Shown here piece after piece: positions 39,624 through 60,645 of a DNA stretch of 64,000 nucleotides (positions are counted from its first letter, which is position 1; the number at the start of each line of letters is the position of its first letter). The position numbers and the translations under genes are program-made. Source of the DNA: Trypanosoma brucei (lineage: Eukaryota); NCBI GenBank assembly GCA_000002445.1, contig CP000066.1, positions 1,536,001-1,600,000 of the forward strand, read 5' to 3'. The notes under the pieces are model-generated. The model searched no databases. It was given only the letters and a program-made list of their open reading frames with translations, and was not told where the DNA came from.

Positions 39624-40074
39624 ATATTAACTGACCGTGAAAACTGGAAAAACACGGCAGTGGTGCGGTTGACTGTCGGTGATGGAAGCTGCAGAAGAGA
39701 AATAATGTCTGTTTTTTTCGTTGTCATCTCACTGAAACATGAATGGGGGGAGAGAGCGGTCCCAACATTTATTTGGGTTTGGTAATGGCATGTCTCTTTT
39801 TTGTCGTAACTCAACGCTAACACGTTTCAGTTGGGGCCAAAATTTTTTGAACCGTGCCAAGGTACACTGGTGACCAGCTTCTCACATCTTCACATGTGGT
39901 CGCATTATTGCTGCCCATCTTTTGTAATCTCCTTACTTATCCACCCTAATACCCTTTGTCTCCTAAATCCACTTGTCACTACACACATTAAGGCTTGAGG
40001 TTAACAAAAAAAAAAGAAAATAAAGCATACCCCATCAGTCATTTACAAATATTTCAAGAGAAAAAAGAGCTTTG

Positions 40075-42864
40075 ATGATAGAATATGCGTGTGGTTGGCT
40101 ACACGCGCCTGTCAGTAGTTTCAACAGTAGGGGGGAAACCACTTCAAGCAGTGAAGGAGCAACGTGGGGTATCGCATTGGGAAGATTCGGCCCTACCGCC
40201 AAGTGTTCTCTTGTGAGAGTACTGGCAGTGATAGTTTCAGGGTATTATTTTTTTGTTGGTTTATGTTTAGTTAGTGCCGCAAAATGCATATGTACCGACT
40301 ACTGGTCTATGATCGAGGGTTTAACAAACGTAGCGAATGTGTCCGAGCTAAGGGAAGTTACCAACCTCACTGACCAGCTTAGATATTCACTCATAGTTGT
40401 TTCATGTGTGGCTCTGTTCGTTCATCTCGCTATTTCTGTTGTCGGAGTGAGGCACATCCGTAGTTTGTTCATGCAACTCGATGCAAATGTCGAGGCGTTG
40501 CACCGTGTTGCCGATGCGTTGGCAGTGCCACTCAACGGTGATGCAACGGGTACTATTGATGTGAATCCGAAGCAGTCCTTTTCCCATGCAAAAAGTTGTA
40601 AAGGGATTCAAAACGCTGCAACACCTGAAATGGCGAATGACATGCTTATGCTTTTGCACCAACTCCGTGGGTTACTTCCCGATTCCACATTTGAAAAGGA
40701 GCTAACAGACGTCGCTGTGCGGCAGTGTAACGGTGCCAAACTTCAATGTGAAAAGGCGAATCTTCCCGTTGGTTCCAAACTTGAGGCCCACTCACCGCGT
40801 GTTATGTCTCAGTTCAGAGTTTCACGGAGAACTGCAGCGGGAATGGTTCGAAATCGGGAGATTTTGGAACACGGTGGCACTGGCACGACCTTCAGGAAAA
40901 GGAGGGTCACGGTGGTGGTTGTTTGCCTCTCCGACTTTGCGCATCAAGTTGAGGAGGATTTGGAACATTGTCTTCATTTTTCCCGACAATTTCTTTCTGT
41001 TGTAACTCAAATTGTTGAGAGGTATGGCGGTATCATTGCGAGTGTAGCACCTAACAAGGTTGTTGTGACATGGAATGCCTTTACGGATTCTCCCCGTCAC
41101 GCACAAAACGGAATGCAATGTGCCTGTGATGTACTTGTTGCGCTCCAACCATTTACACAAGGTTTGAGTGTGTCACCGTCTCTTAAGTTGTTTCCGACCA
41201 TTGTTGCTACTTCAGGGTTTGTTATGGCAGGAACGATCAGAGTTTCTGACCATGAGGACGATGTCTTAAGTGTTTACGGGAATTGTATTTCCCTGAGTGA
41301 GGAACTTCCATCACTATTAGGTGCGCTGAGAGTAAGGTGTGCGTGTGTTGGGGCGCTGGCACATTTTTGCCCAAGCAACTTTTCGTGTATTCCACGAGAC
41401 TGCGTAACAGATGCCAATAACAAAAGGCACATCATTTATGAGATGCAAGATAAGGCTCTCGCACAGCGCCGGCGTCATGTTGAGGCATTTCAAGCATTTC
41501 AGCGAGGAGAACATGGTGTCGCACACCATCTCTACACTCGAATACACGAAGAAACACGTAGTGATTGGAATGCCTTGCGTATGAGTCAGATTTGTTATTA
41601 CTTGGAAGAAAGCCACAGCGTTTACGCCCAACGCTTTCCGGAGTGGCAACTGTTCCCTGTTGAAAGAGAGCACTCATGTGTTAATGAACTTCAACTTGGT
41701 AGAAGGGCGTACGGGTTTATGAAATGCGAGGCTTCACCTGTTGAGGATCATATTCGCCGTGCCATATTAAAGCAAACAGATACACGTGCCCTTCCGCGCT
41801 CTTATGGACGAAATGAGGAGGAGTCGTACCGAACGCCTGAAGTCGCAAAATCAGATAAGTGTTTGATAGTTAAATGTAACTCGTCTTCTTTGCGGTATGT
41901 CACGGAGTTTTGCGACCGTCAAGGGTTGGTGTTTCGCATGTCTAAACAAGTATTAGGCACTGGGGCGTGTGGTGTTGCATTCTTGGGTTTGTCACAAACT
42001 GGTGCACTGGTTGCCATTAAGGAAATCGAACTTCCATTAAGGACTCGGGCACAAAACAGTAACTTAAGCGACCTAAACCGTAGGAGATTACGTCGGAAGG
42101 GAATTCAAGTGGAAAGTGCAATGGAGAAAACTTTGGATGGTATTATCAATGAAGTAAGTTTACTCTCCCGACTGCGTCATGCAAACATAATGGGTTACAT
42201 ATCGTCTGCCATTTGGGGTAACAAATTGCTGATTGTAATGGAGTTGGGTAGTGGTGGGAGTCTCTACGATCTCATACAAAAGTTTGGAAGTATAAAAGAG
42301 AGTCGTGCGAGACGATACCTCCGCGATGTATTGCAAGGACTGGAGTATTTGCATCGCAAGAATATTGTGCACCGGGACATTAAACCTCAGAATGTTCTGC
42401 TACTTGAGACCGGTTTATGTAAACTTACTGATTTTGGTACTTCACAAAACTTGCAGAAAATCGCCAACAGTTGTGCACCTGAGGGAACTCCCCCTTATAC
42501 GGCACCTGAAGCAGCGAGAGGAAAAGCGGAAAAGGCATCTGATATTTGGAGTTTTGGCATTATGATGTTGTATGTTTTAAGTGGTTCCCTCCCATGGCCA
42601 AACATGAACCAAATGACTTCTCATGCATTTTTCTACAAGGTGGGACATGTGGAAAGTTTTATGCCATGTGTAGATGATAAAATTTCTCACGATGCGAAGC
42701 AAATCGTCAAGCGTTGCTGCCAACGCGACCCGAAAGAACGGGCCACCGCACGGGAACTTTTGAATAATTCATTTTTTAACTGCACGGACACTTCTACGAG
42801 TTGCCTCGTTAAGGACTGGCCATCCTCTTGTGGGAATATCTCGAGAAGCGAATTTCATTTGTAG
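40075..42864 (+). CDS. Multi-pass membrane protein with a central, degenerate class III nucleotidyl-cyclase homology domain and a C-terminal STE-group Ser/Thr protein kinase domain.
   Basis: The listed start at 40072 is TTG, and the ATG is at 40075. N-terminal hydrophobic helices are present ('VLAVIVSGYYFFVGLCLVSAA', 'LIVVSCVALFVHLAISVVGV'). The cyclase-like block runs from about 40890 to 41340: 'RVTVVVVCLSDFAHQVEE...GGIIASVAPNKVVVTWNAF...HAQNGMQCACDVL...FPTIVATSGFVMAGTI...VYGNCISLSEEL'. It follows the class III pattern V-F-DI-GFT / KTIGD-YM / HA / RIGIHsG-V-AG / Gd-VN-ASRMES, but with substitutions at catalytic positions. The kinase motifs are 'GTGACGVAF', 'VAIKEI', 'HRDIKPQN', 'DFGTS' and 'GTPPYTAPE'. 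Confidence 0.7.
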   Translation: MIEYACGWLHAPVSSFNSRGETTSSSEGATWGIALGRFGPTAKCSLVRVLAVIVSGYYFFVGLCLVSAAKCICTDYWSMIEGLTNVANVSELREVTNLTDQLRYSLIVVSCVALFVHLAISVVGVRHIRSLFMQLDANVEALHRVADALAVPLNGDATGTIDVNPKQSFSHAKSCKGIQNAATPEMANDMLMLLHQLRGLLPDSTFEKELTDVAVRQCNGAKLQCEKANLPVGSKLEAHSPRVMSQFRVSRRTAAGMVRNREILEHGGTGTTFRKRRVTVVVVCLSDFAHQVEEDLEHCLHFSRQFLSVVTQIVERYGGIIASVAPNKVVVTWNAFTDSPRHAQNGMQCACDVLVALQPFTQGLSVSPSLKLFPTIVATSGFVMAGTIRVSDHEDDVLSVYGNCISLSEELPSLLGALRVRCACVGALAHFCPSNFSCIPRDCVTDANNKRHIIYEMQDKALAQRRRHVEAFQAFQRGEHGVAHHLYTRIHEETRSDWNALRMSQICYYLEESHSVYAQRFPEWQLFPVEREHSCVNELQLGRRAYGFMKCEASPVEDHIRRAILKQTDTRALPRSYGRNEEESYRTPEVAKSDKCLIVKCNSSSLRYVTEFCDRQGLVFRMSKQVLGTGACGVAFLGLSQTGALVAIKEIELPLRTRAQNSNLSDLNRRRLRRKGIQVESAMEKTLDGIINEVSLLSRLRHANIMGYISSAIWGNKLLIVMELGSGGSLYDLIQKFGSIKESRARRYLRDVLQGLEYLHRKNIVHRDIKPQNVLLLETGLCKLTDFGTSQNLQKIANSCAPEGTPPYTAPEAARGKAEKASDIWSFGIMMLYVLSGSLPWPNMNQMTSHAFFYKVGHVESFMPCVDDKISHDAKQIVKRCCQRDPKERATARELLNNSFFNCTDTSTSCLVKDWPSSCGNISRSEFHL

Positions 42865-43385
42865 CGGTATTTAGTTAAGCTTTTTTTTTGTTTTATTTTA
42901 TTTTATTTTATTTTTTTTTGGGGGGGGGGTATCCACGAAATATGTGGAATTGGAGAGGTGCGGGAAAACGGTTGGAAAGCAGAAAAGGGGGAATGCACCG
43001 CAAAAAAAAAAAAAAAGAAAACAAAAGAGAAAGAAGAGAAAGAGAAAATAAGGAAGGAGAAAAGGTGTATGAGTGTGTGTATATTTATATTCGTTCGTTC
43101 GTTCGAGTTATGTTGATGATTTTTGTACCGAACTATTTCATGTGAAAAAAAATTAAATAAATAAATATATATATATTTATTTATTTATATTAATCCTGAG
43201 TCTTACAGCATCTTAGAGTTCACTGAACATGAAACTTGAAACAATTGGTTGTCTCCATTAGTCTTTTTCTTATTTTGTCTCTCATATTTTTCCTCTTTCT
43301 TCTTTTCCTTTTGATATTTATTCTAAACTTATCGCGATGTGTAAAAAAAAAAAAAGAAAGAAAGAAAGGAAGGAAGAAAATAAAA

Positions 43386-43619
43386 ATGCTAGTTAGCGCC
43401 AGCGAAACGTTTAAAGATATGATTCACAATACCTCGTCTGCACTCATTACCGTCGCTGTGGGTTGTGTCATTATTGTGCTTTTATGGTTCACAGTGTGGA
43501 GTACAACACTTAAAGATGTTCCTTTCATTCATGAATTTTTTAACGCATTTACTCGACGCACGGGGTCAAAAAAAAAACCGCAAGTACGCACGAAAAAATG
43601 TACCGTCATCTTCAGGTGA
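43386..43619 (+). CDS. Possible small (77 aa) single-TM protein; speculative.
   Basis: The ATG at 43386 is preceded by an A-rich stretch. A non-repetitive hydrophobic helix 'ALITVAVGCVIIVLLWFTVW' is present. The upstream in-frame part of the ORF (43236-43385) is only a translation of a T-rich low-complexity tract and is probably non-coding. Confidence 0.2.
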   Translation: MLVSASETFKDMIHNTSSALITVAVGCVIIVLLWFTVWSTTLKDVPFIHEFFNAFTRRTGSKKKPQVRTKKCTVIFR

Positions 43620-44493
43620 TTTGCAATTTTTTTTCAAAAAAAGAAAAAAGAACAAAAACAAAAAATAAATTAAAGAAAAATGAAGAAAAATGAAGGTGTC
43701 GTGACGTACAGCTCCCCCTCAGATGAGGAAGTGGAATGGGGTTTGGAGAAAGTGTGGCTAAACTTATTTCACCACTTCCTTTTTTTTTTAATATTTTGGT
43801 GTTTTTTTTTTTGTGTGTGTGTGCGTGTGTGCGTGTTTCTTATTTATTTTTATTTTTTTCTTTTTTTCTTTTTTTTTTGGGGGGGGGTGGGAGGGGGGCT
43901 ACTTACTTATATCATGAAAGAACTTTTTTAAAAAAAACAAAAATAGAAAAAAAGAGAAAAGAAAAGAAAAGAAAAAAAGAGGGCCCCTTCTTCTTCTTAT
44001 TATTATTATTTTGCTTATTAGACACATATGCTTTTTTCATGATGTCCTGAGAAAGTTTTTAAAGCATTTGGAAGGAAGGGAAGGGAAAAAAAAACCCCTC
44101 CCCCCTCCCATCACACACACACACACACACACGAAATATGTTTTACGTTTTTGTGATAATGTTCATGCAATGCAGCGATTTGAAATATTTTAAGAGTTGT
44201 TGTTTTTGTTTTGTTATTTTCATTTTTGTTTGACGTTTGCGTTTATTGAATTCCTTTCTTTGTTTTTTTTTATTTCGTTGTTGTTTTTTCGTTGTTATTG
44301 TTATTATTGTTATTATTGTTCACACTGTTTGCTCGTAATACCTTTCTCTCGTCTGTCACTGTTATATTTTGCACAGTTGCCATTGTTGTTACCCTTATGT
44401 CCTCATATCTTTGCTACGTTATTTGTGGCAATTCCTCATGTCACATGTAATATATTTAAATCTTTTTTGTTCTTGTTTTTTTTTGTTTTATTC

Positions 44494-44527
<34 letters not shown>

Positions 44528-44528
44528 G
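44494..44528. repeat. (GTT)11 microsatellite within a spacer of about 1.8 kb of low-complexity sequence, followed by (AT)n at about 44571-44592.
   Basis: The sequence is 'gttgttgttgttgttgttgttgttgttgttgttg'. The surrounding 42865-44700 region is mostly T-rich, G-run, (CA)n and (GT)n tracts. Confidence 0.9.
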
Positions 44529-44706
44529 CGGTGGTATCTTTATTTCTTCCTCTTCTTTTTTGTTTAAAAAATATATATATATATATATATTTTTTTCCTT
44601 TTCTGTTCTATAGTTAAGTTTCATTGATAATCTAAACAAACTTATAGATTCCCCCCTCTCCCTCATTCATAATACACTAACGATTTGTTTTTGTAATACC
44701 CATCCA

Positions 44707-45873: not shown

Positions 45874-47403
45874 CTTAAGTGCAACAATAACTTTCATCAT
45901 CATCATTATCTCCTTATAAGTTCCTTTTCCTTATTTTCTTGTTATTGCTATTGTTGTGCCGGTTCTTCTTTGTTTTCGTTTTAGTTTTTTTTTAAAAAAA
46001 ACACTCCTCACACCTGTTTTGTCCGTATAAATGCGAATATATAAATAAAGAAGGCAATTTATCCAATTTGCATTTTTGAAACGGTGATGGTGGGCGTAAA
46101 TTCCGATTTTTTTTATGATTTCCCTCACGCACACGCACACACACACACTTCCAAAAAAAAAAATGCGTCCCTGTTACTTTAATAAATAAATATATATATA
46201 TATCCTCATTTAGAACTGTGTGGTCGAAGAACCAAAAAAAAAAAATGAAAATTTTTGATTGCTGCACTTCACTTGATTTTTTTTTAAAATAGTTTTCATT
46301 TTGAGTCTCAGTTTCTCCCTTTGGTTGATCTCAGCTAACAGTTTGTTCACTACTCTCCTTCTGAACATGTTAGGCTCAGTATGTTATTTTCTTTTTTTTT
46401 GTTTTGTACTGTAAATGCTTTTGAAAAAAAAAGGGGGTGAAGGAAATGTGTGCGTCAATTCAAGTGTCATCATTTTATATTTAAAAAAAAATGTCAATTG
46501 GAGGTGTAAAAAAAAAAACATTTTTTGTTTAGCGAGTTCATTTCCATGTATTTTCGTTCCATTCATCATCTAAATAGTTGTTTGTTATTTATTTTTCACT
46601 CTTTGCTTTGACTGAATTTTACTTAGGTTGGAAGTGTGTTGTAGTTTTTAGTTTACAGTTTTGTTGCTGCCGTTTTTTAATTTTTTTTCTATAAAAAAAA
46701 GGAGCTTTGAGAAGAAAGGGAAACGGCGCATTTAATTTTCACACACTTTTCTCTTTCAGTCCTGAAAGTTGAGAAGTGGATGGGCACATGTTAACGGTAT
46801 TTAACATTGATATGATTTGCAGGTGGATGTCGTTTGGAAATTAGAGGGAGAGGAACTGGAAATATAATCGAGTGATGATGCGCAGCAGGAAATGCGTGCC
46901 ACAAATTTGAAATTAAGAAATGATATCAGTTGTTGAAACATGGAGGCGAACAGGAGAAAATATGAAATAACGAATATGACAAGAAGTAAGCGTTACTCGC
47001 ATAAACAACCCGCTGCGCAGCAGAACAGAGAAAGCGAGAGAGGAAGAAGATGATGGTTTAATTATAGCAGAGAAACTAATATTTGGATGACTCCAAACTA
47101 AATTGCTGAAATGTTGGGAATGATGACATTAAACACGTTTTTTTTAATACTTGCCGTTTTGGTGGATTGCAAAATTTCGAAGATATTTATATTTGGTTGA
47201 TGAATGTAATGCTTACGTAGTGAAGGGTACATGTTCTAATAGAGGAGACGCGCGCCTGAATCAAATGTTTATTATAACGCTGTCATCGAGCGCAGGTTAA
47301 TTGACAAACTCTACATGTAGAATATATACATTTCTATACCATTGTGTCTTTTCCGTACTTTTTATCCAAAAAAAAATACATAGACATAACAGGTGTTTAC
47401 ACG

Positions 47404-48075
47404 ATGGCTAAGGTTGATACGCTGCTTGTATCAATTTTATTGCTCTTTTTGTGGCTATCAGTGGGTGTTTATGCAAACCAGCAGGACGGTTCAGCGGTTC
47501 CTATACCAAGCTGTGGTGAACGAGAGGAAGTTGACAATATTTTAAAATCTCTTGATAGAATTAAGCGCCTCAATTATGCGAAGGCAAACTGTACACTCGA
47601 GCGGTACGCCCCAAAAAATTTACATAAAGGGGGTAACTGTACGTTATGTGTCGACGGATTTTGGTGCGTAGACAAGCATATTTGCGTGGTTGATACTCTA
47701 CTGGTTTTTTTGGGTGTGCGTCCACCGCAGGCAGTTGAAGAAAAGAAAGAAAAGTTGGATCCGGATGACAGTTCCGCACCGAATGGAAACGATGAAAATC
47801 CCCTTCCCGCAAGTGATGCCCCCGCAGCCCCCAGCGGGCCCAAACAAAAGCAGCCGGATGATGCGATTAAAACACCAGGGGGAAATGTTAAGGACTCGTC
47901 ACCGGATGTTGTGCAGCATCAGATTTCAACAAAAGGAACTTCTAACACTAAAATTAACAGAAAAAATGAAGTTGCGGACACGGAACAACCTACGGACCAG
48001 CAAAGAAGCATATCTCGACGCCCTTTCACACTCATTCGTTCAATGGATGCAATACTTTTTTTTGTTGTTGTCTAG
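47404..48075 (+). CDS. Small (223 aa) secreted or surface protein. It has a signal peptide, a 6-Cys N-terminal module, a Pro/Ala/Asp-rich low-complexity region and a short hydrophobic C-terminus.
   Basis: The first ATG in the ORF is at 47404 (MAKVDTLLVSILLLFLWLSVGVYANQQ...), and its N-terminus is a typical signal peptide. The Cys pattern is 'CGERE...CTLERY...CTLCVDGFWCVDKHIC'. The C-terminus 'SMDAILFFVVV' is hydrophobic but short for a GPI signal. Confidence 0.45.
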   Translation: MAKVDTLLVSILLLFLWLSVGVYANQQDGSAVPIPSCGEREEVDNILKSLDRIKRLNYAKANCTLERYAPKNLHKGGNCTLCVDGFWCVDKHICVVDTLLVFLGVRPPQAVEEKKEKLDPDDSSAPNGNDENPLPASDAPAAPSGPKQKQPDDAIKTPGGNVKDSSPDVVQHQISTKGTSNTKINRKNEVADTEQPTDQQRSISRRPFTLIRSMDAILFFVVV

Positions 48076-49999
48076 AACTACGGTTTTGACTACTAAGTTT
48101 TTTTTAAAAGGTGAATGTTTTTAAACAGGTCAATTGTGGAATTTGAAAATATGCAGAAGCGGTTCATGGGTATTTGAAAGCATTATGTTGCTATGTTTTT
48201 TTTTCCCGCGCCGCACGCAATTTATGAACAAAGGGCGGCAGGTAAATATTGTGATATGCGGTGTGTAGCAAACTGTACCAATAATGGAATGTATGTACTC
48301 GTTTACGCGTCAAAAGGGGGAAAATGTTTGGCTTGAGGGTGTAAATTAATGATTGGAACAAACTCATTAACACAGAGAGAAACTTAAGAGCAGCAAAATA
48401 CAACACAGTCTTCCGTGAAATAGCAATAGGGAAAAGGGGAAAACTGCACTTCCAACAAACCGGATCGGGGAAGAATAGAGATAATATAAAAGTTGGGGAT
48501 CCCGCCAATCAAATTGGTTGTGTTCAACAAATTCAACAACAGATGTCCATTCGAGCAACTGAAGGGATTAAGAGGATGCAACCGGCTTCTCAATTTAAAC
48601 ATGTGGAGAGCGTTTGGGGAAACCCTGAATCCATCGGGGCTCTCAAAATTCCACACGGAGCTCAAAACTGAACTAACTGAAGAGGGTTAGTCAACATCAG
48701 TAAAGGTTTGATGTAAGCATTGAAGAAAGGAGGAGGAGGAGGAGAAGGGAAAAGTGTCATAAATTCACGTCTCATATTCCATTTCCCTCTTTATATCTTT
48801 GTTGTTTGTTACAATTGAATATCTGGGGCTCTTTCACTCGGCATGCCTTTCTCGTATTGCATCCCGTGGTATATATTTTTGGAAATATTATGCCTCAAGT
48901 AAATAAAGCGCACGCGTGTGTCACCGTTCAAAGCAATGTTTACGTGTCATTTGTTAAAGCACTGGTCTCACTTACGTCCCCTCGGCCCATAATTTTCTCT
49001 GCTCTGAATTTAAAGAGGATGCATTTATGACCTGGTAGGGTGGAAGAAACAAAAGAATTTAAAAAGGGGGAACAGTAAAAATAAGGTAACGATGAGTTAA
49101 GAGGGCGCTGCTTGAATATTGCTAATGCGGCACCTTTGTAACATCGCAACATTTTGGTGTAAGAAGGTTTTCTTTGTCAGCATGTGGTATGATATATTGC
49201 ATAATTATGCCTTTGGTGGATAAGGTTTACCGTGTCTGTATGCTGGATTTTTATAATGAAGATTACTCCACAAATGTAAAGTAAAAAAGGGGGAGTAATT
49301 TATAAACGATAATTCTGATTCGCGATAATTTCGGTAGAAATGGTATTATTTGTTTGATTTGGGTTGAACAGTCGAAACGTGTCACATTTTTCATAGGTTG
49401 TGGGGCGTTTAAAACTGTGATTATGGTCGGGTAGATTGTGTTATATATGTGAGACTGTGAAGCCACCAGGTGGATTATAAGAGGGATTTGATAAATTGGG
49501 AAACATAAATTCGTATAACTTTCGGTTGTTGACATAATTGAGTTTGCTTTTTTTTTTGATAATGGTTACAAGAGCGTGATGGAACTGTATCCGAGCAAAT
49601 ATGTCGGGATATCACCCGGAAATTTCAGAGGAATGGACTCTGATAGAATGTTAAGTTTAAATGAGCTGAAAGTGAGCGCTGCGTGCACTGTGCCCCCAGA
49701 AAATGTATCGAGCAGGGATTCCAGTCCCTTCCCTGCGGTCTCTGGAATCTGCGTCGTGCGAATATCAGAAGTGCACGTTTTCTGCAGAAGGTTGCGGAAA
49801 ATAAGAAACAGAGGTTGCGTTTTTGTAATTGAATTGTGTGACTAGTGTGGTCACCAAAATATGCGCATGTGACATGTTATGCCCGAAATGAAGCGCATAT
49901 GATTCTTTCAAGATTCATATCTTGGTGGTACTCTATTATTATTTTTTTTAATTGAAGCTTGAAAATTCTCAAAGGTGAGTAAGGCTGGGTAAAGGGAAT

Positions 50000-51472
50000 A
50001 TGCGCATTGGGAAGTATTGCGTCGTTTTTCTGCTAGTGTGGACGCAAGCAACCAAGAGAAGCGTGGGAAAACCCACAAATATTATAAATCAGGAAGAATT
50101 TAAAGCATTATGTGCTTTCGTGAATTTGGCGAATGAATCGGTAGACTACGCAGGTCTCGAAGCCGAAATCAGGGACGCGGCAGCAGATATCGGGGCTATT
50201 TTTCTTGCGTCGCAGCAAGAAAGCATTTCGAAATTGAGGGAGCAAATTGAGATCTGGCGCGAGGTTGAAGCAACCAATAACGGAGGGAACAACCGAGGCA
50301 TTAAAAAGTGGAGTGTTTGGGAGGAAGCGAGAAGAAAGCTAATAGATGAAGGCGGAACAAAATATGTGCAATGGGTTGAATTGGGCTTGAGTGATGCTGA
50401 GAAGCAGAAGATAGAGGAAGCTATGGATGAGACAGTCAAATGCATGGCGGAGGAGAACGGCTTGTGGGACACTTTGCGGGAAATGCCAGTAAAAGGAAGT
50501 ATAACAAAAGCAATATTCGGATCCAGGGAAAGGCAAGTGCAGATTATGAAAGGACGCGGTAGCCGCGAAACCGCTTGTGGCAGGGGATTATTCCCTGGAG
50601 ACTGGGCGGGCACGGCATTGAGCGCTGACTTACTGTGCCTGTGCGCCGCTACGGAACGCAGGGCCGCCACCAACGAGGGTTGCTGCACAGGATGCGAGAC
50701 AGGGGGAAATGGCGTTGCTTGGGATCCAAGGGTGCATAGTGAGGAGAGGTGGAATTTGCTTAGAAGTAAATGTGAAAAGGTCAGCAGCGGTACTCCCCTT
50801 TCAAGTCGAGCGCTGTCGGTTGCGGAGAGTACATTTTTCAACCAACTGAAGATCTCAAAAGGGTCAACATCAGGAAGACCAACGCTACTGGGTAAATTTG
50901 GAACTAGCTTTTCCGTGGGTTGTACCGGGGAAATCACCGAGAAAGAGGGACGTTGCGTTCGGTATAGCCACAGCCATGTTGACAGAAATAATCCAGCGCT
51001 ACCCTGGCTTACAAACTTAAGGGAGGCGGCAAATGCAGTAGATCAGTTGAATGCAGTTGATACAAAGCTCAAACATCTACGCGTTGGTATAGCCACCTTC
51101 CACACGAAGCATGTTGATTTTAAATCGCGTGAAAAAGGAAACGGCGGCGACCCTATTCTGGGAAGCGGTGGCGTAGAGGGTGAAGTTAACACCAATGAGT
51201 CAACGAAGGCGAACACAAACGATGGTAGAGCAAAAAAGGCTGGTGAAAGCAAAAGAACACCTGTCGACAACATTTCACATAAATGCGAAGGTTATAGGCA
51301 GGGAAAAACATGCAAAAGTCGAAAAGTGGAAACGGAATGTGACTGGGAGGAGGGTACATGCGTTGGCTCTGCCAGTGAGCCAGTCACTTCGCCTCTGAGG
51401 CAAAGACCACCTACTTCAGGGAAGGTAAACTCCATTAGATGCTCACTGAGTTTGTTTTTAATACTATTATAG
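50000..51472 (+). CDS. VSG-like (variant surface glycoprotein or VSG-related) gene, 490 aa, apparently intact.
   Basis: A signal peptide 'MRIGKYCVVFLLVWTQATKRSVG' is present. The N-terminal domain has the 'ALCAFVNLA' motif and a B-type-like Cys cluster 'LLCLCAATERRAATNEGCCTGCETGG'. The C-terminal domain has four Cys ('CEGYRQGKTCKSRKVETECDWEEGTCVGS'), resembling VSG C-terminal domains of the 'CKWEG-TCKDS' type. A hydrophobic tail 'IRCSLSLFLILL' is compatible with a GPI signal. The size is typical for a VSG. I could not find the canonical VSG 3'UTR 16-mer (TGATATATTTTAACAC) downstream. Confidence 0.55.
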   Translation: MRIGKYCVVFLLVWTQATKRSVGKPTNIINQEEFKALCAFVNLANESVDYAGLEAEIRDAAADIGAIFLASQQESISKLREQIEIWREVEATNNGGNNRGIKKWSVWEEARRKLIDEGGTKYVQWVELGLSDAEKQKIEEAMDETVKCMAEENGLWDTLREMPVKGSITKAIFGSRERQVQIMKGRGSRETACGRGLFPGDWAGTALSADLLCLCAATERRAATNEGCCTGCETGGNGVAWDPRVHSEERWNLLRSKCEKVSSGTPLSSRALSVAESTFFNQLKISKGSTSGRPTLLGKFGTSFSVGCTGEITEKEGRCVRYSHSHVDRNNPALPWLTNLREAANAVDQLNAVDTKLKHLRVGIATFHTKHVDFKSREKGNGGDPILGSGGVEGEVNTNESTKANTNDGRAKKAGESKRTPVDNISHKCEGYRQGKTCKSRKVETECDWEEGTCVGSASEPVTSPLRQRPPTSGKVNSIRCSLSLFLILL

Positions 51473-54400
51473 TCATCGTGAGCGAAACCATTATTAAGAA
51501 TGGTTTAGGTTATAAAATGGTTTAGCTAACTATTTTATTCGATCTACAGGGGGAGATATGTGTTCTTACTTTATTATGTAGGACTGCTTTTGGTGGTTAT
51601 CATGATTATGTTCTTTCAGTATGTAGGCTGCCGCTGGAACCCACACATTTAAGCTGATCATGCCTCCTATGGAAGGTTTTATGGGGGTAAAATACAGGGT
51701 GTTGTGGACTAGTTTTACCTCGAAAGGGGAATGTACATCAAGAATCCGGGGGCTGTCCTTCATATCTATTTGCTCCCTGTGTGCAACTCGTTTGCTGTGA
51801 AGAAGAGTGGGGCGTTTATTCACTATTTTGTTTTTTTCTTTGCGACAACGTACTCCGAGTACTAAGGATGGACATCCACTGAGAAGTTATACGCTGGCTG
51901 GTATATGCTTTTGGTGGAGTCTATGTATACCTTGGCGCATAGAGATGGCGAAGTTGGGAAGGTGAGCGCGTTGTGTTGTCTTTGGTAAGCTAGTATACTG
52001 CTGTAAAGCGAGTTTTAATGACGGGGGAGTATTTACGGTGCGGGTATTATGTTGCTTGGATTGCATTCTTAGGAAAATTTGGACGGAGAAGTGTTCAGTT
52101 GGGAAGATTATTACCACGAAATGGAGTGGCATTCGCGAGTGTGTGCAGGAAAATATATCCTCGTAGAAAGTGTGCTGATGGGACAGTACATTTTCGTGGG
52201 GAATATAAGGCTCTTTACCACAGTATTTTTGTTGCGGGGATAACTGGTTACTCACTGGCACCAAGTGCCGCCAATCTCAAGCTCATGTCGTTGTTGGTGT
52301 TGCCTCTTTCAGTGAGAGGCAACGGCACAGACGAAGGTACATCAGCGGGTAGTGTTGCACAGCGCATAGGTTAAGGGGAATTCATTTCGGTAAGGAATTC
52401 CGCTAAACACCGGCAGCTCGAAAATTACGCACCGCTAAAGTGATAGTTGAAGCTTCAACCGCCTAAAGTTACCGTTGGAAAACAAAAATGCAATATGTGC
52501 AACAGAGGTCTTGTTTGCACATGGAAATGGGCCTGTCTTACCGTTGAACTTTCCGGCGATTTTGGAGTCACACGGCTGCCAGCCCGTCAGGTGTGCAACC
52601 AAAAGGCAACCTCACTCTGAAGAATCCCACTGCCGCATTTGCAGGTGGTAAAACTGCAATGGATAGCGGTACGGAACCGACTTCAGAAGAACGAACTGCG
52701 AGGCATAACAGCGGGGGAACGGGCACCAAGGGAGAAAGAAGCAAGGTGGTTTTCCGTGCCGCAGGGTATGTCGCTCCAGGGAAACAGGTATCTAGTTCGA
52801 CTCCTGCAAACTCTCTTAACAGCGGCGCTTGTTCCTCGCCCCATATCACCACTGACCGAGGAGCAAGCATTTTCCACTCCTCATCATACCCAATCTATCA
52901 TACAACGAATCCGATTGTTATGTCCTTTTTATACCATATAAATATATCTTCTCTTTCAAAGCAGTAAAGTGCTGGAGGAGGTCAATACGGAAACATTTAT
53001 AATTATAAAAATTGTTTCTACGAATCATTTTTCTAGAGGAAGTGCATAGAGATGCCAAATTACCCTAACCCGAACCAATTGAAGAATGTTTGAATGTGCT
53101 GAAGCACTCTCTCAAAAGATGGAAGAGGAGGTACGACATTGCCCAAATAATACAACTCCGTGTTGAAAGTAGTGAATTGAAGTACAGGCACGGATCAACA
53201 TTAGCTCGCATCAGTTTTCACGCTACAAACTAAGTCTTTTAATTGGGTTAGTGCAGCAGCCGAGATAAGCGCTGAGGTTATCAACTTGATGGAAGTAGTG
53301 TCTGTCACAAACAAACCTTCGAGGTGCGGAGCAGAGGTCTTATCGGCACGTATATTACAAATTTCGGGGAGAAAGGCTTAGGGAAAAGTAAGATTATCGT
53401 ACAAACACCCGTCAGTTGGGGGTTCGTCAAGAAAATATAAGTCAGATAGATTATAAATTAGGAATCGGGATGTATACATTTTTTTACATGATAAATTTTG
53501 GAGCAGCGGAAGTAAAGGTTTCCATGGGTAGAAGATGGGGATGTGCACGGCTAAGGTGTTGGTGTTTTTGATACTGGCATCCAGGTAGCAAGTGTAAAGG
53601 GTGCTAATTGTGATGAGTTGAAGATTCTTCGTGGTTTCCTGAGGCCTGTTTGGGGGTATTTAAATGTGGTTGACGAAGGAAGCAAGGAACGCGTTACAGG
53701 CACTTGAAACCAAGGAATCGAGTCCTTACTGGGGCGATATCCCATGGCACCGATAGGTTGTAGAACAGAAAGCACACATTCAATCAGCGACGAATGCAGC
53801 ATTTGTTCCGTGTGCGAGGAAAAAGTGAGCAACGTACTTAAAATAAACCCCGAAAACCCTTTGTCAACACCCAGGACAAAGCAAAGCGACTTGAGCAACC
53901 ACAAAGAATTGACGAATTTGGTCGAACAAGCCTCTGAGCTGTACATGAAAAACTCACTGAAAGTCAGAGTGACGGCAGAAGATTTTCAAAAGGATGCAGA
54001 GGAAATACTCTACGGTATAGAAGACAAAAAAAAGTCCAAAAGGTATGGAACTAAGAAGGGAGCAGGCTTGCGGTAAAGAAGTATCAAGCTGAAACAACTA
54101 CTTTCGGCGTGCGCTAACTATAGACCTGATGTGCTTGTGCTTTCCCCCAGAACTACCTTTAGCTGCCGCGTTGTGTTGCGATAGGTGCAACATGGAACCA
54201 AACACCGCGACCTGGGACGTAGAAACCTCCACCAAGATAACCGATTTTATGATCGAAAAATGTGGAGATTGCCCGCTTCCATAAGTGAGTTTTGTGAAAA
54301 CTATGAAGAAAAACTTCGTGAAGCTAAATGATCTCGGAAAGTTTAGGAAGAAATCCAGAGGAAAGGCTTTCTGTGCTGTAGGTTGGGACAATAGGGAAGA

Positions 54401-56951
54401 TATGCAGAGTTGCTCGGGAAGAACAAAGTCGGCAACCTGTGCGCAGTACAACACAAGCGAAGGAGGTCTTGCCTGGGGAGAGGTGTCTTAGCTAAAAAAA
54501 AAAACTAATGAAGTTACAAAATCAATTGCGAGATTTAAGACAATATGGAACTCAACGGAAAATGCAAGAGGCAACAACTAAACTGGAAAGGCAGATTGAT
54601 ACTTTTTCGAACAGGGAGGTTGACGAGGAACTGGAGCACATTCAACTGGTACAAAAACATGAGCCACCCGCAAAGCATCAGCATCCGTCTCCACGCGTGG
54701 AAGCAACGGAAGGTAATGACAAACAAGTCATGACCGAAAACTTAAACAGCAAGCCTAACGATAGAGTTAGGGCACATGCTGCGGAAGGAAACTCGGGGAA
54801 TCCTGTCTTGCAACAGGGAAATGAGTCCAAAGAAATCCCACATCAGCCACAGCGACCAAAAAGCGGCACCCAAATTGTTCCGCCTCTTAAGGTTCTTTTG
54901 CTTTTCCTGTAGAACAATACACAGGTTTTTATGTTCATAGTGATAACAGTTTGAACAACCAAATTCTCTACGGAATTCCGGAAGCTGACTTTCGATTGGA
55001 ACCACTATCCTATTTCCCCTTTCTGGAAAAGAACTACTGGTAACGAACAGAGCACACTCAGGCTCTACAGGATCAAACTCACTGGGAAAACTATTGTCAC
55101 TAAGGGTGAAAAAAAAAAATCGTGGAGCACCATCAGTGTACCTAATGGTTTCATTTGAGTGGCAAATAAATAAAATCAAAACATGAAGGAATGGGAAAGT
55201 AGTTCATTTCGGCGGAGTACGCAGAAGGTGCGAGGCTGTTGCGCTGTTAAAATAATATCTGAAACTCCACCAGAGTAGGCAACACTCGTCTTGAGAGAAA
55301 AATAACGGACATGTCACAAAAACAAATGAAAATTTCAGTCTATTGCCTATTAATCTTTTTATGATGGGTTGAATGTGAAACTACCGTAGATTTTTTCGTT
55401 CTGACTGACTGTAGGAGACAAAAGCACTTCAAATGCGCTCTCCGGCAATAACGGCCAGCGACGAGGTGAAGTGGAAGCTACAGTGAGTGACAGGTGCGTG
55501 AGAAGCGTTAACGTAAATGCCTTCGTTCACCTGTGTACAAAATGTTAAAACGTGACAAAGGAAGCGACCTCAGAAAAATACGTAAAAGTCGCGAGAACAT
55601 ATGGATCGACAAGGCAAAAAAAAACAATCGCTCAAATCCGAGATGGTGGAGGAGAGATCGAGTATTATATCGATAAAAACCACATCAGCGGTGCACACCA
55701 AAATAACGAGTGAAAGGCACACGTGAGCACAAAAGTGCGCGAGATCTAACCTAATTTAGCGGATAACCGCAGTGCTACTGCGAAAAGTAAAAGGGGACAC
55801 CTCACACCAAGAAAACAACTGTGTGTTTCGTGCAAGTTTAGAAGGGAAAATGGTAAGACCGTGACACAAAGGATCAGAGAAGTTTTCACAGTATTTTTAA
55901 AAATATGCACTCACAAAAGCTGCCGCACAAATCAGTGAGTTGCACCATAAAACCTCAAAAATATCCGCCGATAACACAACCGTGCGGTTAACCACCCGTA
56001 AGAAACAATGGACTGTGTCGCACCGGCGAAAAGGAGGTAAACAAGTTCAGAAATATGAAAAAAAAAAAGTGTATGTGACGTGCGACTGTTACATCCCTTA
56101 CAGAAGAATCAATACCCGTGACTACATTATGAACCCGGAAGTTGTATTAAGCGTCAGCCGGACGACTAAACCAGGGTGTGGCATGCATCACTAACCACAC
56201 ACGCATAAACACAAAGGGAAAGATTGCAAAATTATATCACAAGCCCCAAGGAAACACTCGAATACCATTGATCAACCAAAAACGAAGGAATGTCTAATAA
56301 CATGCAGACAGCCTTCACCAGATGGGATGTTGAATGCAGAGAGCGTTGGTTGGGAGTATATGGCATGAAAATCGTACGGACGAGAAGCAATCAAAAGTTA
56401 AATGTCACCCTTGGTGGTTCGGACAAACAGTAGTTAAGAAGTGGTAACAAGCACAAAGCGCAAAGAACAAAAGGAAGGGAGAATGATGCCAAAAAGTGAA
56501 GATGACGACCGCCGCTGAAGAGCGTGTGTATGTGACCTACAACCGGAGAAAAAAAAGGAGTCTAGCAAAAAAAAAAACGCAGCAGAGGATGCCGAGTCGA
56601 GCTAAGTTAAGGAGGGGGAAATAAAACTTGAAGCCAAAAGTACAAACCCGGAGAAGAGTAAATGTTCCCACACACTACCGGGTGATCGATCCGGAGTTAG
56701 CACCTAATTTCCGCTAACTCTTTCTCAAGTTATTACCATATTTTTACGAATATCGTTGTTTTAGCTTGCGAAAATTGTCCCGAAAGTCATCACTAGAACA
56801 AGAGTATTTTCCAGCTGCAACACCCCAAACTGTTGAGAAAAAAAAAGTTGCACCGTCTCACTTATAATAAAAAAATATCAAAAAATATATTGGAATTCAA
56901 TCAAGAACACCACTTTTCTTCTATTTATGTTTCCTTTTAAGAAGAGGAGCG

Positions 56952-57944
56952 ATGGAGAACAAATATTTAGTGTGGTGCATGTTTTTTTGTTTAACGGTTG
57001 TGGGGGGCAAAGCTAATGCAGTGAAAACAACGCTAAAGAAAGAAACGAATTGCCACACAACTGTTAAAGCACTGTTCAACAAACGTGAAAACTGTCATGA
57101 TCTGGCCTCCGATGCAACGAAAATAAATGAGGATGTTGACATCGGAACAGATGCAGATAGATGGACTGCTTGCACATGGTTAGAATATGATAAGAGGCGT
57201 ACGGAGACACAATGCATATTGAGGTTTAACAACACATATGGAGAGAAATTAGTATGCACCTACGAAACAAAGGGCAATCGCCAAGACCTAAGTTGCAAAC
57301 CAGAGGGTCGTTGCGAAGACGCTCGCGAGCGGTACCTTTTAGGGGAAGAAGGATGTCCGAAGCCTGCACCACGTGAAGAACCAAAAAGAAACAAAACCGA
57401 AAGGTGTCTTGATGAGGTTTATGGGTCATTCAGCGGTGACCAGGAGTGTGCGAAACTTAAAATAGGAAGCGAGGTCGCCGAGCAAATTATATTCAGGGAG
57501 AACGGAGATGACAAAACACCAGAATGTATAGAAGCAAGTGGCCCCCCAGAGTCGAAAGTGGTTGGAGAAGCATGCGTAATAAAGTTGCGAACCGAGCCAC
57601 ACCCATCAGAATATATTTGCAAAATGGAGGGTTCTGGTGAGGAAAGGAAAATAAAATGCACAAGAGAAACATCGAAAACAGTTCCTCAACCTACGACCAC
57701 AAGGAAGAGACGAGGCAGTACTGGATCCATGCGCAAAAGAAGTGACGACGGTGGTAACACTGAGGTCACCCTGAAAGAAGATAAAGACAAAACACAAGAT
57801 GAGGATGAAGGCCAAAAAGAAGAAAGAAAAGAAGAAAGCGGTGAAGAAACTGGTACAGCAAAAGCTCGAATCAAAAGCAAAACTTATTGGAAATCAAATA
57901 ATCCTATTATCATGCTTTTAACACTTTCGTTATTGTTGCTTTAA
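56952..57944 (+). CDS. Cys-rich surface protein with a signal peptide and a C-terminal GPI-anchor-like signal. It is the divergent first member (330 aa) of the tandem family that follows.
   Basis: It is about 45-50% identical to the downstream copies. Conserved blocks are 'TQCILRFNNTYGEKLVCTYETKGNRQDLSC' (versus 'TQCILKFENAEGNRIACTYETEGGQGNVSC') and 'PESKVVGEACVIKLRTEPHPSEYICKMEGSGEERKIKC'. The C-terminus 'WKSNNPIIMLLTLSLLLL' is identical. Confidence 0.7.
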   Translation: MENKYLVWCMFFCLTVVGGKANAVKTTLKKETNCHTTVKALFNKRENCHDLASDATKINEDVDIGTDADRWTACTWLEYDKRRTETQCILRFNNTYGEKLVCTYETKGNRQDLSCKPEGRCEDARERYLLGEEGCPKPAPREEPKRNKTERCLDEVYGSFSGDQECAKLKIGSEVAEQIIFRENGDDKTPECIEASGPPESKVVGEACVIKLRTEPHPSEYICKMEGSGEERKIKCTRETSKTVPQPTTTRKRRGSTGSMRKRSDDGGNTEVTLKEDKDKTQDEDEGQKEERKEESGEETGTAKARIKSKTYWKSNNPIIMLLTLSLLLL

Positions 57945-58767
57945 TACTGTTTAATAATAAACGGTAATGTAAACTGTTTGGAAGAAAGTATGCTTTTAAC
58001 GGAGAAGGGAAGTGAGTGTATCAAAACATTTTTCTTGTAAGACATACATTAAGGGAACATTTTTATGTTTTTTTTTTGTCACGCGTCACTGCTGTAAAAA
58101 AAACTTCTTGCGCTCAAGTTGTATCGAAAGTATTGAATTTTCAACGATGTTGTTCGGTGGGGAAGGTAAGGGGAATAGGATATATAGTTGTGTCGGGGAC
58201 GGCGTTCTGTTTGTTGAAAGGGGTAAAGAGAGGAAAAAACCCTACACCGGGTGAAAGTAACTGACTGATGAAGTTCGTTTGGATCGATAGACAAGTGGAA
58301 CTCGCCGCAAAAAGGTTGTAACAGCATTTAACCGGCACATGCGGCTTAGCGTTTTAGGTTGAGAAATGCACGTATAAAGGCACGGATGCTCAGGAAATAC
58401 CCTTATTTCTGATAACATAATTGGACGCTAAGCTAGAGAAGGCACAACACCAGATTCGAGAATACAACAGAAAAATGACGGGCGATGGCACCGACGAAGA
58501 GGAACAATTGAAGCGGGTCGCTGAAATCGATAACATCAATGCCCACGGCAGCCTCCTCTCGACGCGCGGACAAAACAAGAAAAAAAAATGCAGCTTCAGA
58601 AAAAAAAAAAAATGTTTCTTTGGGAAACCACTTGAAACTGTTGAGGAAAAGAGGGTTTGCCACGCCCAGCCGCTAATGATAATGTGAAATGGAAATTTAC
58701 AGTATCCATTTAACCTACAATATCATGATTCCTACACCTTTATCATTCTTCCTTTAGCGAAAACAAA

Positions 58768-59829: not shown

Positions 59830-60645
59830 TATCATTTAATAAACGGTAATGTAGACTGTTTTGAAGAAAGTATGCTTTTAACGGAGAAGGGAAGTGAGTG
59901 TATCAAAACATTTTTCTTGACAGACGTACATTAAGGGAACATTTTTATTGTTTACTTGCCATATTGCACTGCTAAAAAACTTCTCGTGCTGGAGTTGCGT
60001 GCGAAGTATTAGATTTCTTCACCGATTCTTTTTTGTAGCGAAGGTAAGGGGAATAGGATATGTAGTTGTGTCGGGGACGGCGTTCTGTTTGTTGAAAGGG
60101 ATAGCAGGAAGAGAAAACTCTACCCCGGGTGAAAGCAACTGACTTGTGCAGTTCGTTCGGATCGATAGACAGGTGGAAATCGCCGCAAAAAGGTTGTAAC
60201 AGCATTTGATCGGCACATGTGGTGTAGCGTTTTGGGTTGAGAAATGCACGCATAAAGGCACGGATGCTCAGGAAATACCCTTATTTCTGATAACATAATT
60301 GGACGCTAAGCTAGAGAAGGCACAACACCAGATTCGAGAATACAACAGAAAAATGACGGGCGATGGCACCGACGAAGAGGAACAATTGAAGCGGGTCGCT
60401 GAAATCGATAACATCAATGCCCACGGCAGCCTCCTCTCGACGCGCGGACAAAACAAGAAAAAAAAATGCAGCTTCAGAAAAAAAAAAAAATGTTTCTTTG
60501 GGAAACCACTTGAAACTGTTGAGGAAAAGAGGGTTTGCCACGCCCAGCCGCTAATGATAATGTGAAATGGAAATTTACAGTATCCATTTAACCTACAATA
60601 TCATGATTCCTACACCTTTATCATTCTTCCTTTAGCGAAAACAAA

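What the first reader, a model, noticed from the sequence alone, without database searches (positions are those of the whole stretch)
50000..51472. Intact VSG-like gene at the edge of a housekeeping polycistron
A 490-aa ORF has the hallmarks of a variant surface glycoprotein: a signal peptide, a B-type-like Cys-rich N-terminal domain, a 4-Cys C-terminal domain and a hydrophobic GPI-signal tail. It is transcribed in the same direction as the upstream core genes and is followed by a 5.4-kb stretch free of ORFs. I did not find the canonical conserved VSG 3'UTR 16-mer downstream, and no obvious 70-bp repeat array upstream. I saw only weak fragments resembling one, such as 'taagagcag' near 48385 and 'tgttatatatgtgagactgtg' near 49441. 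That argues for a 'VSG-related' (VR) or atypical chromosome-internal VSG-family gene rather than an expression-site-competent VSG. Such genes are of interest as possible non-variant surface receptors evolved from VSGs, as TgsGP, SRA and the transferrin receptor were.
Basis: partly seen in the sequence, partly recalled or inferred. Interest (0 to 1): 0.5.

Follow-up and report, generated by a model that had tools for sequence, protein, structure and literature searches.

The report
Known VSG-related gene VR9 (Tb927.3.5680)

Summary
The 490-aa ORF at 50000..51472 (+) is real. The window is T. brucei brucei TREU927 chromosome 3, 1,536,001-1,600,000. The ORF is Tb927.3.5680 (XP_844158.1), annotated "VSG-related, putative" and listed as "VR9" by Jensen et al. 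2009.

Pfam VSG_B scores E=3.6e-71. An AlphaFold model matches only class-B VSG N-terminal domains. A 4-Cys C-terminal module and a 17-residue VSG-type GPI-signal-like tail are present.

No VSG 3'UTR 16-mer, 8-mer or 70-bp repeat is found. Published microarrays show low mRNA levels, 7-9 times higher in bloodstream than procyclic forms.

First, the "ORF-free" 5.4 kb holds a decayed second VR-type gene (~53864-54912, VSG_B E=2.3e-15). Second, T. b. gambiense DAL972 has a single dead gene at this locus: the VR9 5' end, a 250-bp patch, then the relic. It lacks window 50138-53882. T. equiperdum keeps VR9 with 0/1473 substitutions.

Verdict: already known. The function is still untested, and the gene is evidently dispensable in one subspecies. 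Low interest.

The parts
50000..51472 (+). CDS of Tb927.3.5680 (VR9), 490 aa, VSG-related protein
   Evidence: ORF. 100% identical to XP_844158.1/AAZ10599.1/SCU73053.1. Gene ID and start coordinate 1,586,000 from the Jensen 2009 supplement.
49931..49957 (+). Polypyrimidine tract (CTCTATTATTATTTTTTTT) followed by the first AG (49956-49957). Candidate trans-splice acceptor, giving a 5'UTR of about 42 nt.
   Evidence: Read directly from the sequence. Inferred from the general trypanosome splice-site rule, not mapped here.
50000..50068 (+). Signal peptide region (residues 1 to about 17-23). The cleavage site is inferred: after TQA17 or G23.
   Evidence: Hydrophobic core residues 6-15. Helix 7-17 in the model.
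50036..51082 (+). Class-B VSG N-terminal domain (residues 13-361), 11 Cys
   Evidence: Pfam PF13206 E=3.6e-71. PDB sequence hit mVSG1954 at 1.3e-17. Foldseek top 27 hits are all class-B VSG NTDs. Family-invariant C38, C193, C258, C308, W336.
51284..51361 (+). 4-Cys C-terminal module (C429, C438, C447, C454)
   Evidence: Cys positions. Small helix plus hairpin in the model, pLDDT about 60-70. Pfam Trypan_glycop_C only E=0.19, below cutoff. The same motif occurs in the VR paralogues.
51419..51472 (+). 17-residue GPI-signal-like tail GKVNSIRCSLSLFLILL plus stop codon. Inferred omega site S473.
   Evidence: The tail aligns residue for residue with the canonical 17-aa VSG signal NSFVINKAPLLLAFLLF seen in family members, and is shared in short form by the VR clade. 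GPI addition is not tested.
53864..54912 (+). Decayed VR-type VSG_B gene (relic) with at least 3 in-frame stops and 2 frameshifts. Ends in the VR-like tail VPPLKVLLLFL.
   Evidence: tblastn hits of about 20 VSG_B proteins. Frame translations. Pfam VSG_B E=2.3e-15 on the stitched translation, profile positions 112-342 of 352. Its C-terminal part is closest to the VR protein P0079.
50138..53882 (+). 3,745-bp segment (VR9 codons 47-490 plus 2.4 kb of 3' flank) with no counterpart in T. b. gambiense DAL972, where 250 bp stands in its place.
   Evidence: blastn of the window against L002. Junction sequence. Tbg translation.

Best explanation
The ORF is Tb927.3.5680 (VR9), one of the roughly 30-36 'VSG-related' genes of T. 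brucei.

Shown: it encodes a secretory-type protein with a class-B VSG N-terminal fold, a 4-Cys C-terminal module and a VSG-style 17-residue hydrophobic tail. It lies on the + strand with its neighbours, about 67 kb from the right end of the chromosome 3 assembly. It follows core genes (SPT16, enoyl-CoA hydratase, NF-X1 zinc finger, protein kinase, TbGnTI) and sits inside a small cluster of T. brucei-specific predicted surface-protein genes. It has none of the cis elements that make a VSG switchable or super-abundant: no upstream 70-bp repeats, no 3'UTR 16-mer and no 8-mer.

Inferred: it is transcribed by RNA polymerase II as part of the polycistron, trans-spliced at about 49957 and regulated through its own 3'UTR. 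Without the 16-mer it cannot recruit the CFB2/MKT1 stabilising complex, which fits the low mRNA level. Published arrays give about 1,900-2,400 units in bloodstream forms against 260-360 in procyclics. The product is most likely a low-abundance, non-variant, GPI-anchored bloodstream-stage membrane glycoprotein of the surface, flagellar pocket or endosomal system. It is not a coat protein and not an archive donor.

The gene is not universally required. In T. b. gambiense DAL972 the locus carries only a dead gene.
For: - Identity: 100% match to the annotated VR protein. Three gene start coordinates in the Jensen 2009 supplement (5670 at 1583404, 5680 at 1586000, 5690 at 1592952) equal window 47404, 50000 and 56952 plus 1,536,000. 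The gene is named 'VR9', VSG-I, BF>>PF.
- Fold: Pfam VSG_B 3.6e-71. PDB mVSG1954 1.3e-17. AF2 pLDDT 78, pTM 0.71. Foldseek hits are only class-B VSGs: mVSG1954, VSG11, VSG3, VSG615.
- Clade: it groups with four other VR-type or VR-like proteins at 88% bootstrap, three of them with VR or VSG_B-domain annotations. Nearest paralogue 38% identical, canonical VSGs at most 27%.
- Missing cis elements.
- Role of the 16-mer and CFB2: PMC8051951.
- VR genes are chromosome-internal and lack 70-bp repeats: PMC2771046. They are T. brucei-specific: PMC3605285.
- Some VR proteins are enriched in the bloodstream-form surface proteome: PMC4587319.
- Constraint: 0 substitutions in 1,473 bp against T. equiperdum OVI, while flanks show 2.5-15 per kb. 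Poisson P is about 5e-6 against pooled flanks but only about 0.03 against the adjacent 3' flank.
Against: - No protein-level evidence for this particular gene. Tb927.3.5680 does not occur in the supplementary tables held for the surface proteome or in the ribosome-profiling supplements.
- mRNA signal is low, near the array's 5th percentile in procyclics.
- The T. b. gambiense orthologous position is a pseudogene.
- The 90%-identity protein cluster holds no Lister 427 or EATRO1125 VSGnome entry, unlike the clusters of other VRs. The gene may therefore be strain-variable and functionless.
- Pfam's VSG C-terminal model is below threshold and the CTD alone finds no solved structure.
- GPI anchoring, localisation and Pol II transcription are inferred, not tested.
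Confidence: 0.88

Rival explanations
1. It is an ordinary silent archive VSG that can be copied into an expression site and used for antigenic variation.
For: Full-length intact VSG_B N-terminal domain, 4-Cys CTD-like module and VSG-like tail.
Against: No 70-bp repeat array or core motif upstream. No 16-mer or 8-mer downstream. Core-chromosome position in a Pol II unit among housekeeping genes. At most 27% identity to canonical VSGs, and separate clade membership. Identical protein in T. equiperdum.
Confidence: 0.02
2. It is an intact but functionless gene on its way to decay, transcribed only because it sits in a polycistron. The bloodstream bias is a by-product of its UTR.
For: - The same locus is dead in T. 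b. gambiense and a dead VR copy lies next door.
- No orthologue appears in the Lister 427 or EATRO1125 VSGnome clusters.
- Low mRNA signal. No hit in the proteome supplements held.
- Neighbouring arrays are known to vary between strains (PMC4288722).
Against: The 490-codon ORF is intact, with zero substitutions against T. equiperdum, while the neighbouring relic has 14.9 substitutions per kb. All family-invariant Cys and Trp residues are retained. Stage regulation is 7-9-fold. Other VR proteins are translated and surface-associated.
Confidence: 0.25
3. It is a dedicated host-ligand receptor or resistance factor evolved from a VSG, in the manner of the transferrin receptor, SRA or TgsGP.
For: Precedent only. 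VSG-fold proteins have repeatedly been recruited to such roles (PMC3605285). VR9 is bloodstream-enriched and non-variant.
Against: No ligand, no localisation data, and no similarity beyond the generic class-B fold. It is dispensable in T. b. gambiense. Expression is low.
Confidence: 0.1

Closest known systems
VSG-related (VR) genes of T. brucei (Marcello & Barry 2007; 36 VR sequences counted in PMC2854126)
   Same: It is one of them, listed as VR9. It is chromosome-internal, lacks 70-bp repeats, has a b-type VSG-like fold, is T. brucei-specific and has bloodstream-biased mRNA. It shares the short hydrophobic tail and 4-Cys module with P0008-P0011.
   Different: Nothing categorical. Unlike several other VRs, its orthologue is missing or dead in T. 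b. gambiense and it is not represented in the 427 or EATRO1125 VSGnome protein clusters.
Class-B variant surface glycoproteins (mVSG1954, VSG3, VSG11, VSG615)
   Same: Same N-terminal fold. Foldseek E 6e-13 to 1e-4, probability 1.0. Conserved Cys framework and the 'DLxCLC...CC..C' core.
   Different: Only 13-20% identity in the Foldseek structural alignments to solved class-B VSGs and at most 27% sequence identity to canonical VSGs. Not subtelomeric. No 70-bp repeats and no 16-mer. CTD below the Pfam threshold. Invariant between T. b. brucei TREU927 and T. equiperdum.
Other non-variant b-type VSG derivatives: Fam1 (Tb927.6.1310-1390) and ESAG2
   Same: b-VSG-derived, predicted GPI-anchored and bloodstream-enriched. 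Fam1 lies at a chromosome-internal strand-switch region and varies in copy number between subspecies (PMC3605285).
   Different: Fam1 proteins are 347 aa and lack the VSG C-terminal domain. VR9 keeps a 4-Cys module. No direct sequence comparison was made here.
VSG-derived receptors and resistance proteins: ESAG6/7 transferrin receptor, SRA, TgsGP
   Same: The general principle of a VSG fold reused for a non-variant role.
   Different: ESAG6/7 derive from a-type VSG-like genes, whereas VR9 is b-type. All of these have demonstrated ligands or functions and VR9 has none. They are expression-site or subtelomere associated, whereas VR9 is in the core.

Membership tests
VSG superfamily, B-type N-terminal domain (Pfam PF13206) | Significant match to the VSG_B profile over the whole domain | tested here: met
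   E=3.6e-71, 240.7 bits (cutoff 25), residues 13-361 against profile 2-347 of 352. No A-type profile hit at E<=1.
VSG superfamily, B-type N-terminal domain (Pfam PF13206) | Class-B VSG three-dimensional fold | tested here: met
   AF2 model pLDDT 78.1. Top 27 Foldseek PDB hits are all class-B VSG NTDs, best mVSG1954 at E=6e-13, TM 0.62 normalised by target. This is a predicted structure, not a solved one.
VSG superfamily, B-type N-terminal domain (Pfam PF13206) | Conserved cysteine framework | tested here: met
   C38, C193, C258 and C308 are invariant. C213, C215, C228 and C319 are at least 90% conserved in a 56-sequence alignment.
Canonical switchable (archive or expression-site) VSG | 70-bp repeats upstream of the gene | tested here: not met
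No tandem repeat with a period near 70 and no TRR-rich array at 46.4-50 kb. The core motif, recalled from memory, has 0 matches within 3 mismatches.
Canonical switchable (archive or expression-site) VSG | Conserved 3'UTR 16-mer TGATATATTTTAACAC (and 8-mer) | tested here: not met
   The only match within 3 mismatches is at 44181, upstream and at chance level. The 8-mer TTGCTACT, recalled from memory, is absent beyond 41211.
Canonical switchable (archive or expression-site) VSG | Subtelomeric array, minichromosome or expression-site location | tested here: not met
   It follows core genes on the same strand. Classed 'VSG-I' (internal) in the Jensen 2009 supplement.
Canonical switchable (archive or expression-site) VSG | Recognisable VSG C-terminal domain (Pfam PF10659) and canonical GPI signal | tested here: inconclusive
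   PF10659 E=0.19, 12.6 bits, below the 21.4 cutoff. The 4-Cys pattern and a 17-residue tail colinear with the canonical 17-aa signal are present. The CTD alone has no PDB sequence hit.
VSG-related (VR) genes | VSG-like protein encoded at a chromosome-internal site without 70-bp repeats | tested here: met
   Definition as given in PMC2771046.
VSG-related (VR) genes | Phylogenetically separate from canonical VSGs, clustering with other VRs | tested here: met
   NJ tree on 339 NTD columns: VR9+P0008+P0009 at 79% bootstrap, plus P0010+P0011 at 88%. P0009 and P0011 carry VR annotations, P0010's cluster carries VSG_B-domain, hypothetical-protein and 'variant surface glycoprotein' (VSGnome) labels, and P0008 is labelled 'VSG, putative'. 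A distance method on a limited sample.
VSG-related (VR) genes | Listed as a VR in the original classification | tested here: met
   'Tb927.3.5680 VSG-related VR9' in the Jensen 2009 supplement, which follows Marcello & Barry 2007. The primary paper is not held.
GPI-anchored surface protein | Actual GPI addition and surface or flagellar-pocket localisation | not testable with these tools
   Only the sequence signal is seen. The family-level proteomic statement in PMC4587319 does not name this gene.
VSG-derived receptors (TfR ESAG6/7, SRA, TgsGP) | Sequence membership or a demonstrated ligand | not tested
   No direct comparison was run. No solved structure of these proteins appears by name among the 50 Foldseek PDB hits listed.

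The most novel reading that the evidence does not exclude
VR9 at this locus may be the product of a VSG-style segmental replacement inside the chromosome core. A resident VR-type gene, preserved as a single colinear dead gene in T. b. gambiense, would have had codons ~47-130 replaced in the T. b. brucei/T. equiperdum lineage by the body and 2.4-kb 3' flank of another VR gene. The upstream junction falls right after the family-conserved 'EFKALCAFVNLA' motif. This would create a new intact mosaic gene on the old 5' end and push the old 3' two-thirds downstream as the relic. If so, mosaic gene formation, known from the subtelomeric VSG archive, also renews 'invariant' VR genes in Pol II units and produces subspecies-specific surface proteins.
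Probability: 0.3. Interest if true: 0.4.

Novelty: already known. Interest (0 to 1): 0.13.

Why it matters
As a gene call it adds nothing. Tb927.3.5680 has been annotated as VSG-related since the TREU927 genome and appears as VR9 in published expression tables.

VR proteins are still functionally uncharacterised, and they are candidates for invariant bloodstream-stage surface molecules. The comparison made here adds one useful fact: VR9 is intact and perfectly conserved in TREU927 and T. equiperdum OVI, but replaced by a dead chimeric-looking gene in T. b. gambiense. That marks it as dispensable and lineage-variable rather than a core receptor. It also gives a concrete locus at which to study how VR genes are born and lost.

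Tried and rejected
- Word-indexed protein search with VR9 returned only itself. The exhaustive HMMER search was needed to see the family.
- Rfam scan of 42-64 kb found nothing.
- The bacterial promoter/terminator scan was at chance level and is irrelevant for a trypanosome.
- Pfam on eight short ORFs in the 51.5-56.2 kb gap found nothing. The relic shows up only by tblastn and a stitched translation.
- Marcello & Barry 2007 (PMC1950903) is not held.
- The locus of the nearest paralogue P0008 and the TREU927 neighbours are not on record in the contig index. I therefore could not compare flanks or add more strains.
- DNA comparison of VR9 against the relic, and of their flanks, found no similarity. 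A recent tandem duplication is rejected and simple homologous unequal crossover is unlikely.
- A search for an intact version of the T. b. gambiense-type resident gene found only VR9, through the shared N-terminus. The direction of the rearrangement stays unresolved.
- The weak global similarity of the Tbg 250-bp patch to window 53633-53882 (57% identity, z=3.4 against mononucleotide shuffles) is not strong enough to call homology.
- Surface-proteome and ribosome-profiling supplements held as text do not mention Tb927.3.5680.
- Recent papers that use the term 'VSG-related' say nothing about this gene.

Full report
**Observation.** All ORFs of 180 aa or more that are not antisense shadows lie on the + strand across the whole window.

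Upstream genes are ordinary core genes:
- SPT16 at 32735-35803
- enoyl-CoA hydratase at 36763-37698
- an NF-X1 zinc-finger protein at 37986-39623
- a protein kinase at 40072-42864

**Where the window comes from.** The translated ORF is 100% identical to one database protein with accessions AAZ10599.1/XP_844158.1 (T. brucei brucei TREU927) and SCU73053.1 (T. equiperdum). [quoted passage not shown] Neighbouring ORFs match AAZ10597 (the TbGnTI glycosyltransferase, Tb927.3.5660), AAZ10600 and AAZ10601/2/4.

The Jensen et al. 2009 supplement gives start coordinates 1,583,404 for Tb927.3.5670, 1,586,000 for Tb927.3.5680 and 1,592,952 for Tb927.3.5690. These equal window 47404, 50000 and 56952 plus 1,536,000. 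The window is therefore chromosome 3, 1,536,001-1,600,000, and the ORF is Tb927.3.5680. The same supplement calls it 'VSG-related VR9', class VSG-I (chromosome-internal), expression group B 'BF>>PF'.

**Protein anatomy.**
- Pfam gives VSG_B at E=3.6e-71 over residues 13-361. The VSG C-terminal model scores only 0.19, below its cutoff, and no A-type model hits.
- Against PDB sequences the best hit is metacyclic VSG1954 at 1.3e-17.
- An exhaustive HMMER search finds 126 cluster representatives. The nearest is 38% identical (P0008, chromosome 9), followed by three VR or VSG_B-domain proteins at 30-36%. Canonical VSGs are at 27% or less, and T. congolense VSGs appear only at E around 1e-6 to 1e-3.
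- In a 56-sequence alignment VR9 keeps every invariant Cys and Trp.
- In an NJ tree of the N-terminal domain it groups with P0008 and P0009 (79% bootstrap) and with P0010 and P0011 (88%).
- An AlphaFold2 model built on that alignment has mean pLDDT 78 and pTM 0.71, with the N-terminal domain mostly above 85.
- Foldseek against the PDB returns only class-B VSG N-terminal domains in the first 27 places: mVSG1954, VSG11, VSG3, VSG615.
- The C-terminal part has four Cys at 429, 438, 447 and 454.
- The last 17 residues, GKVNSIRCSLSLFLILL, line up residue for residue with the canonical 17-residue VSG GPI signal NSFVINKAPLLLAFLLF seen in family members. The VR clade shares this shortened tail. I infer omega = S473. 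GPI addition itself is untested.

**Cis elements.**
- The 16-mer has no match within three mismatches except a chance-level site 6 kb upstream.
- The 8-mer, whose sequence I recalled from memory, is absent beyond 41211.
- There is no tandem repeat with a period near 70 and no TRR-type array in the 3.6 kb upstream. A 26-nt core of the 70-bp repeat, also from memory, has no match.
- A pyrimidine tract and AG at 49931-49957 would serve as a splice acceptor (inference).

**Expression and mechanism.** Jensen et al. report signals of 1,903 (cultured bloodstream), 2,397 (slender), 1,829 (stumpy), 260 (procyclic log) and 364 (procyclic stationary). That is 6.1-fold for cultured bloodstream against procyclic. 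Tb927.3.5670 and 5690-5730 are bloodstream-enriched too.

The 16-mer is what recruits CFB2/MKT1 and makes VSG mRNA very stable (PMC8051951). Its absence explains why VR9 mRNA is ordinary in abundance. VR genes as a class are described as internal, lacking 70-bp repeats (PMC2771046), T. brucei-specific (PMC3605285) and, for some members, enriched in the bloodstream surface proteome (PMC4587319). VR9 itself is not mentioned in the supplements held.

My best explanation is therefore a Pol II-transcribed, low-abundance, non-variant, probably GPI-anchored bloodstream-stage glycoprotein. Identity and fold are shown. Transcription mode, anchoring and localisation are inferred.

tblastn of the family against the window shows consistent + strand hits at 54036-54476 and 54649-54909. 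The frame translations contain the VSG_B core 'ACGKEVSS*NNYFRRALTIDLMCLCFPPELPLAAALCCDRCN...W' interrupted by stops and frameshifts, and end in a VR-like tail. A stitched translation scores VSG_B E=2.3e-15 over profile positions 112-342. So the 'ORF-free' gap holds a dead VR-type gene, roughly 53864-54912.

**Comparative result.** The syntenic T. b. gambiense DAL972 locus (L002) was fetched through its GT11 orthologue. It aligns to window 46234-50137 and 53883-58240, but has only 250 bp in place of window 50138-53882.

The gambiense copy starts like VR9, at 96.5% identity over the first ~170 bp aligned. It has TAA at codon 32, continues through a VSG-like but unrelated patch, and then becomes the orthologue of the TREU927 relic. 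Read as a whole it is one colinear full-length VR-type pseudogene.

T. equiperdum OVI (L001) has the TREU927 arrangement. It shows 0 substitutions in the 1,473-bp CDS, against 10.4 per kb upstream, 2.5 per kb in the next 2 kb and 14.9 per kb in the relic.

VR9 and the relic share no DNA similarity, and neither do their flanks. No intact version of the gambiense-type gene exists in the protein database.

Two histories remain open:
- Import of a VR body plus 3' flank into a resident gene in the brucei/equiperdum lineage.
- An old tandem pair, followed by deletion in gambiense and 5' loss in brucei.

VR9's 90% cluster contains no Lister 427, EATRO1125 or gambiense entry, whereas the clusters of other VRs do. 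This is weak evidence that VR9 is strain-variable.

**Comparison with what is known, and verdict.** The gene meets every tested criterion of the VR family. It fails three defining criteria of a switchable VSG: 70-bp repeats, the 16-mer and location. It shares the fold, but not the context or abundance control, of class-B VSGs. Analogies with TfR, SRA or TgsGP are only analogies.

The finding is a correct re-discovery of an annotated gene, so the novelty is 'already known' and the interest is low. The only parts with some freshness are the adjacent relic and the subspecies difference with breakpoints inside the coding region. These show that VR9 is dispensable in at least one human-infective lineage and hint at mosaic-type turnover of VR genes in the chromosome core.

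Noticed in passing
window 53864-54912 (+): Decayed VR-type VSG_B gene inside the supposedly ORF-free gap. It has at least 3 stops and 2 frameshifts. The VSG_B core motif and a VR-like hydrophobic tail are still readable, and Pfam VSG_B scores 2.3e-15 on the stitched translation.
   Followed up: yes
window 50138-53882 vs L002 15372-15621: T. b. gambiense DAL972 lacks this 3.7-kb segment (VR9 codons 47-490 plus its 3' flank) and has a 250-bp VSG-like patch instead. Its single gene is colinear but dead, with TAA at codon 32, further stops and a frameshift. The direction of the event is unresolved.
   Followed up: partly
window 56952-63522 (+): Four-member tandem family of Cys-rich secretory proteins with hydrophobic tails (Tb927.3.5690-.5730). 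The 330-aa first copy is about 40% identical to three 353/354-aa copies. Two of those copies (58768 and 60646) encode identical proteins and the third is 84% identical. The literature reports the extra copies as absent from T. b. gambiense and T. evansi (PMC2854126, PMC4288722).
   Followed up: partly
window 47404-48075 (+): Tb927.3.5670, a 223-aa T. brucei-specific protein with a signal peptide (MAKVDTLLVSILLLFLWLSVGVYA) and a hydrophobic C-terminus. It is bloodstream/stumpy-enriched in the Jensen 2009 supplement. No Pfam family matches. It is not called as a gene in the T. b. gambiense locus.
   Followed up: no
window 42865-44700: AT-rich (GC about 0.36), low-complexity stretch with many poly-A/poly-T and short repeats between the last conserved core gene (protein kinase) and TbGnTI. 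It marks the transition from housekeeping genes to the T. brucei-specific surface-gene cluster.
   Followed up: no
window 50146-50937 (-), 58807-59706 (-), 60685-61584 (-), 62497-63399 (-): Long antisense ORFs (263-300 aa) lie inside VR9 and inside each 353-aa gene. They are most likely shadows of the strong purine/GC skew of the sense strand and not genes.
   Followed up: no
L001 (T. equiperdum OVI) vs window 48658-55453: Divergence is very uneven: 0 substitutions per kb in the VR9 CDS, 2.5 in the next 2 kb, 10-15 in the upstream flank and the relic, and 72 per kb at 54913-55453, next to an assembly gap. This could reflect selection, recombination blocks or assembly quality.
   Followed up: partly
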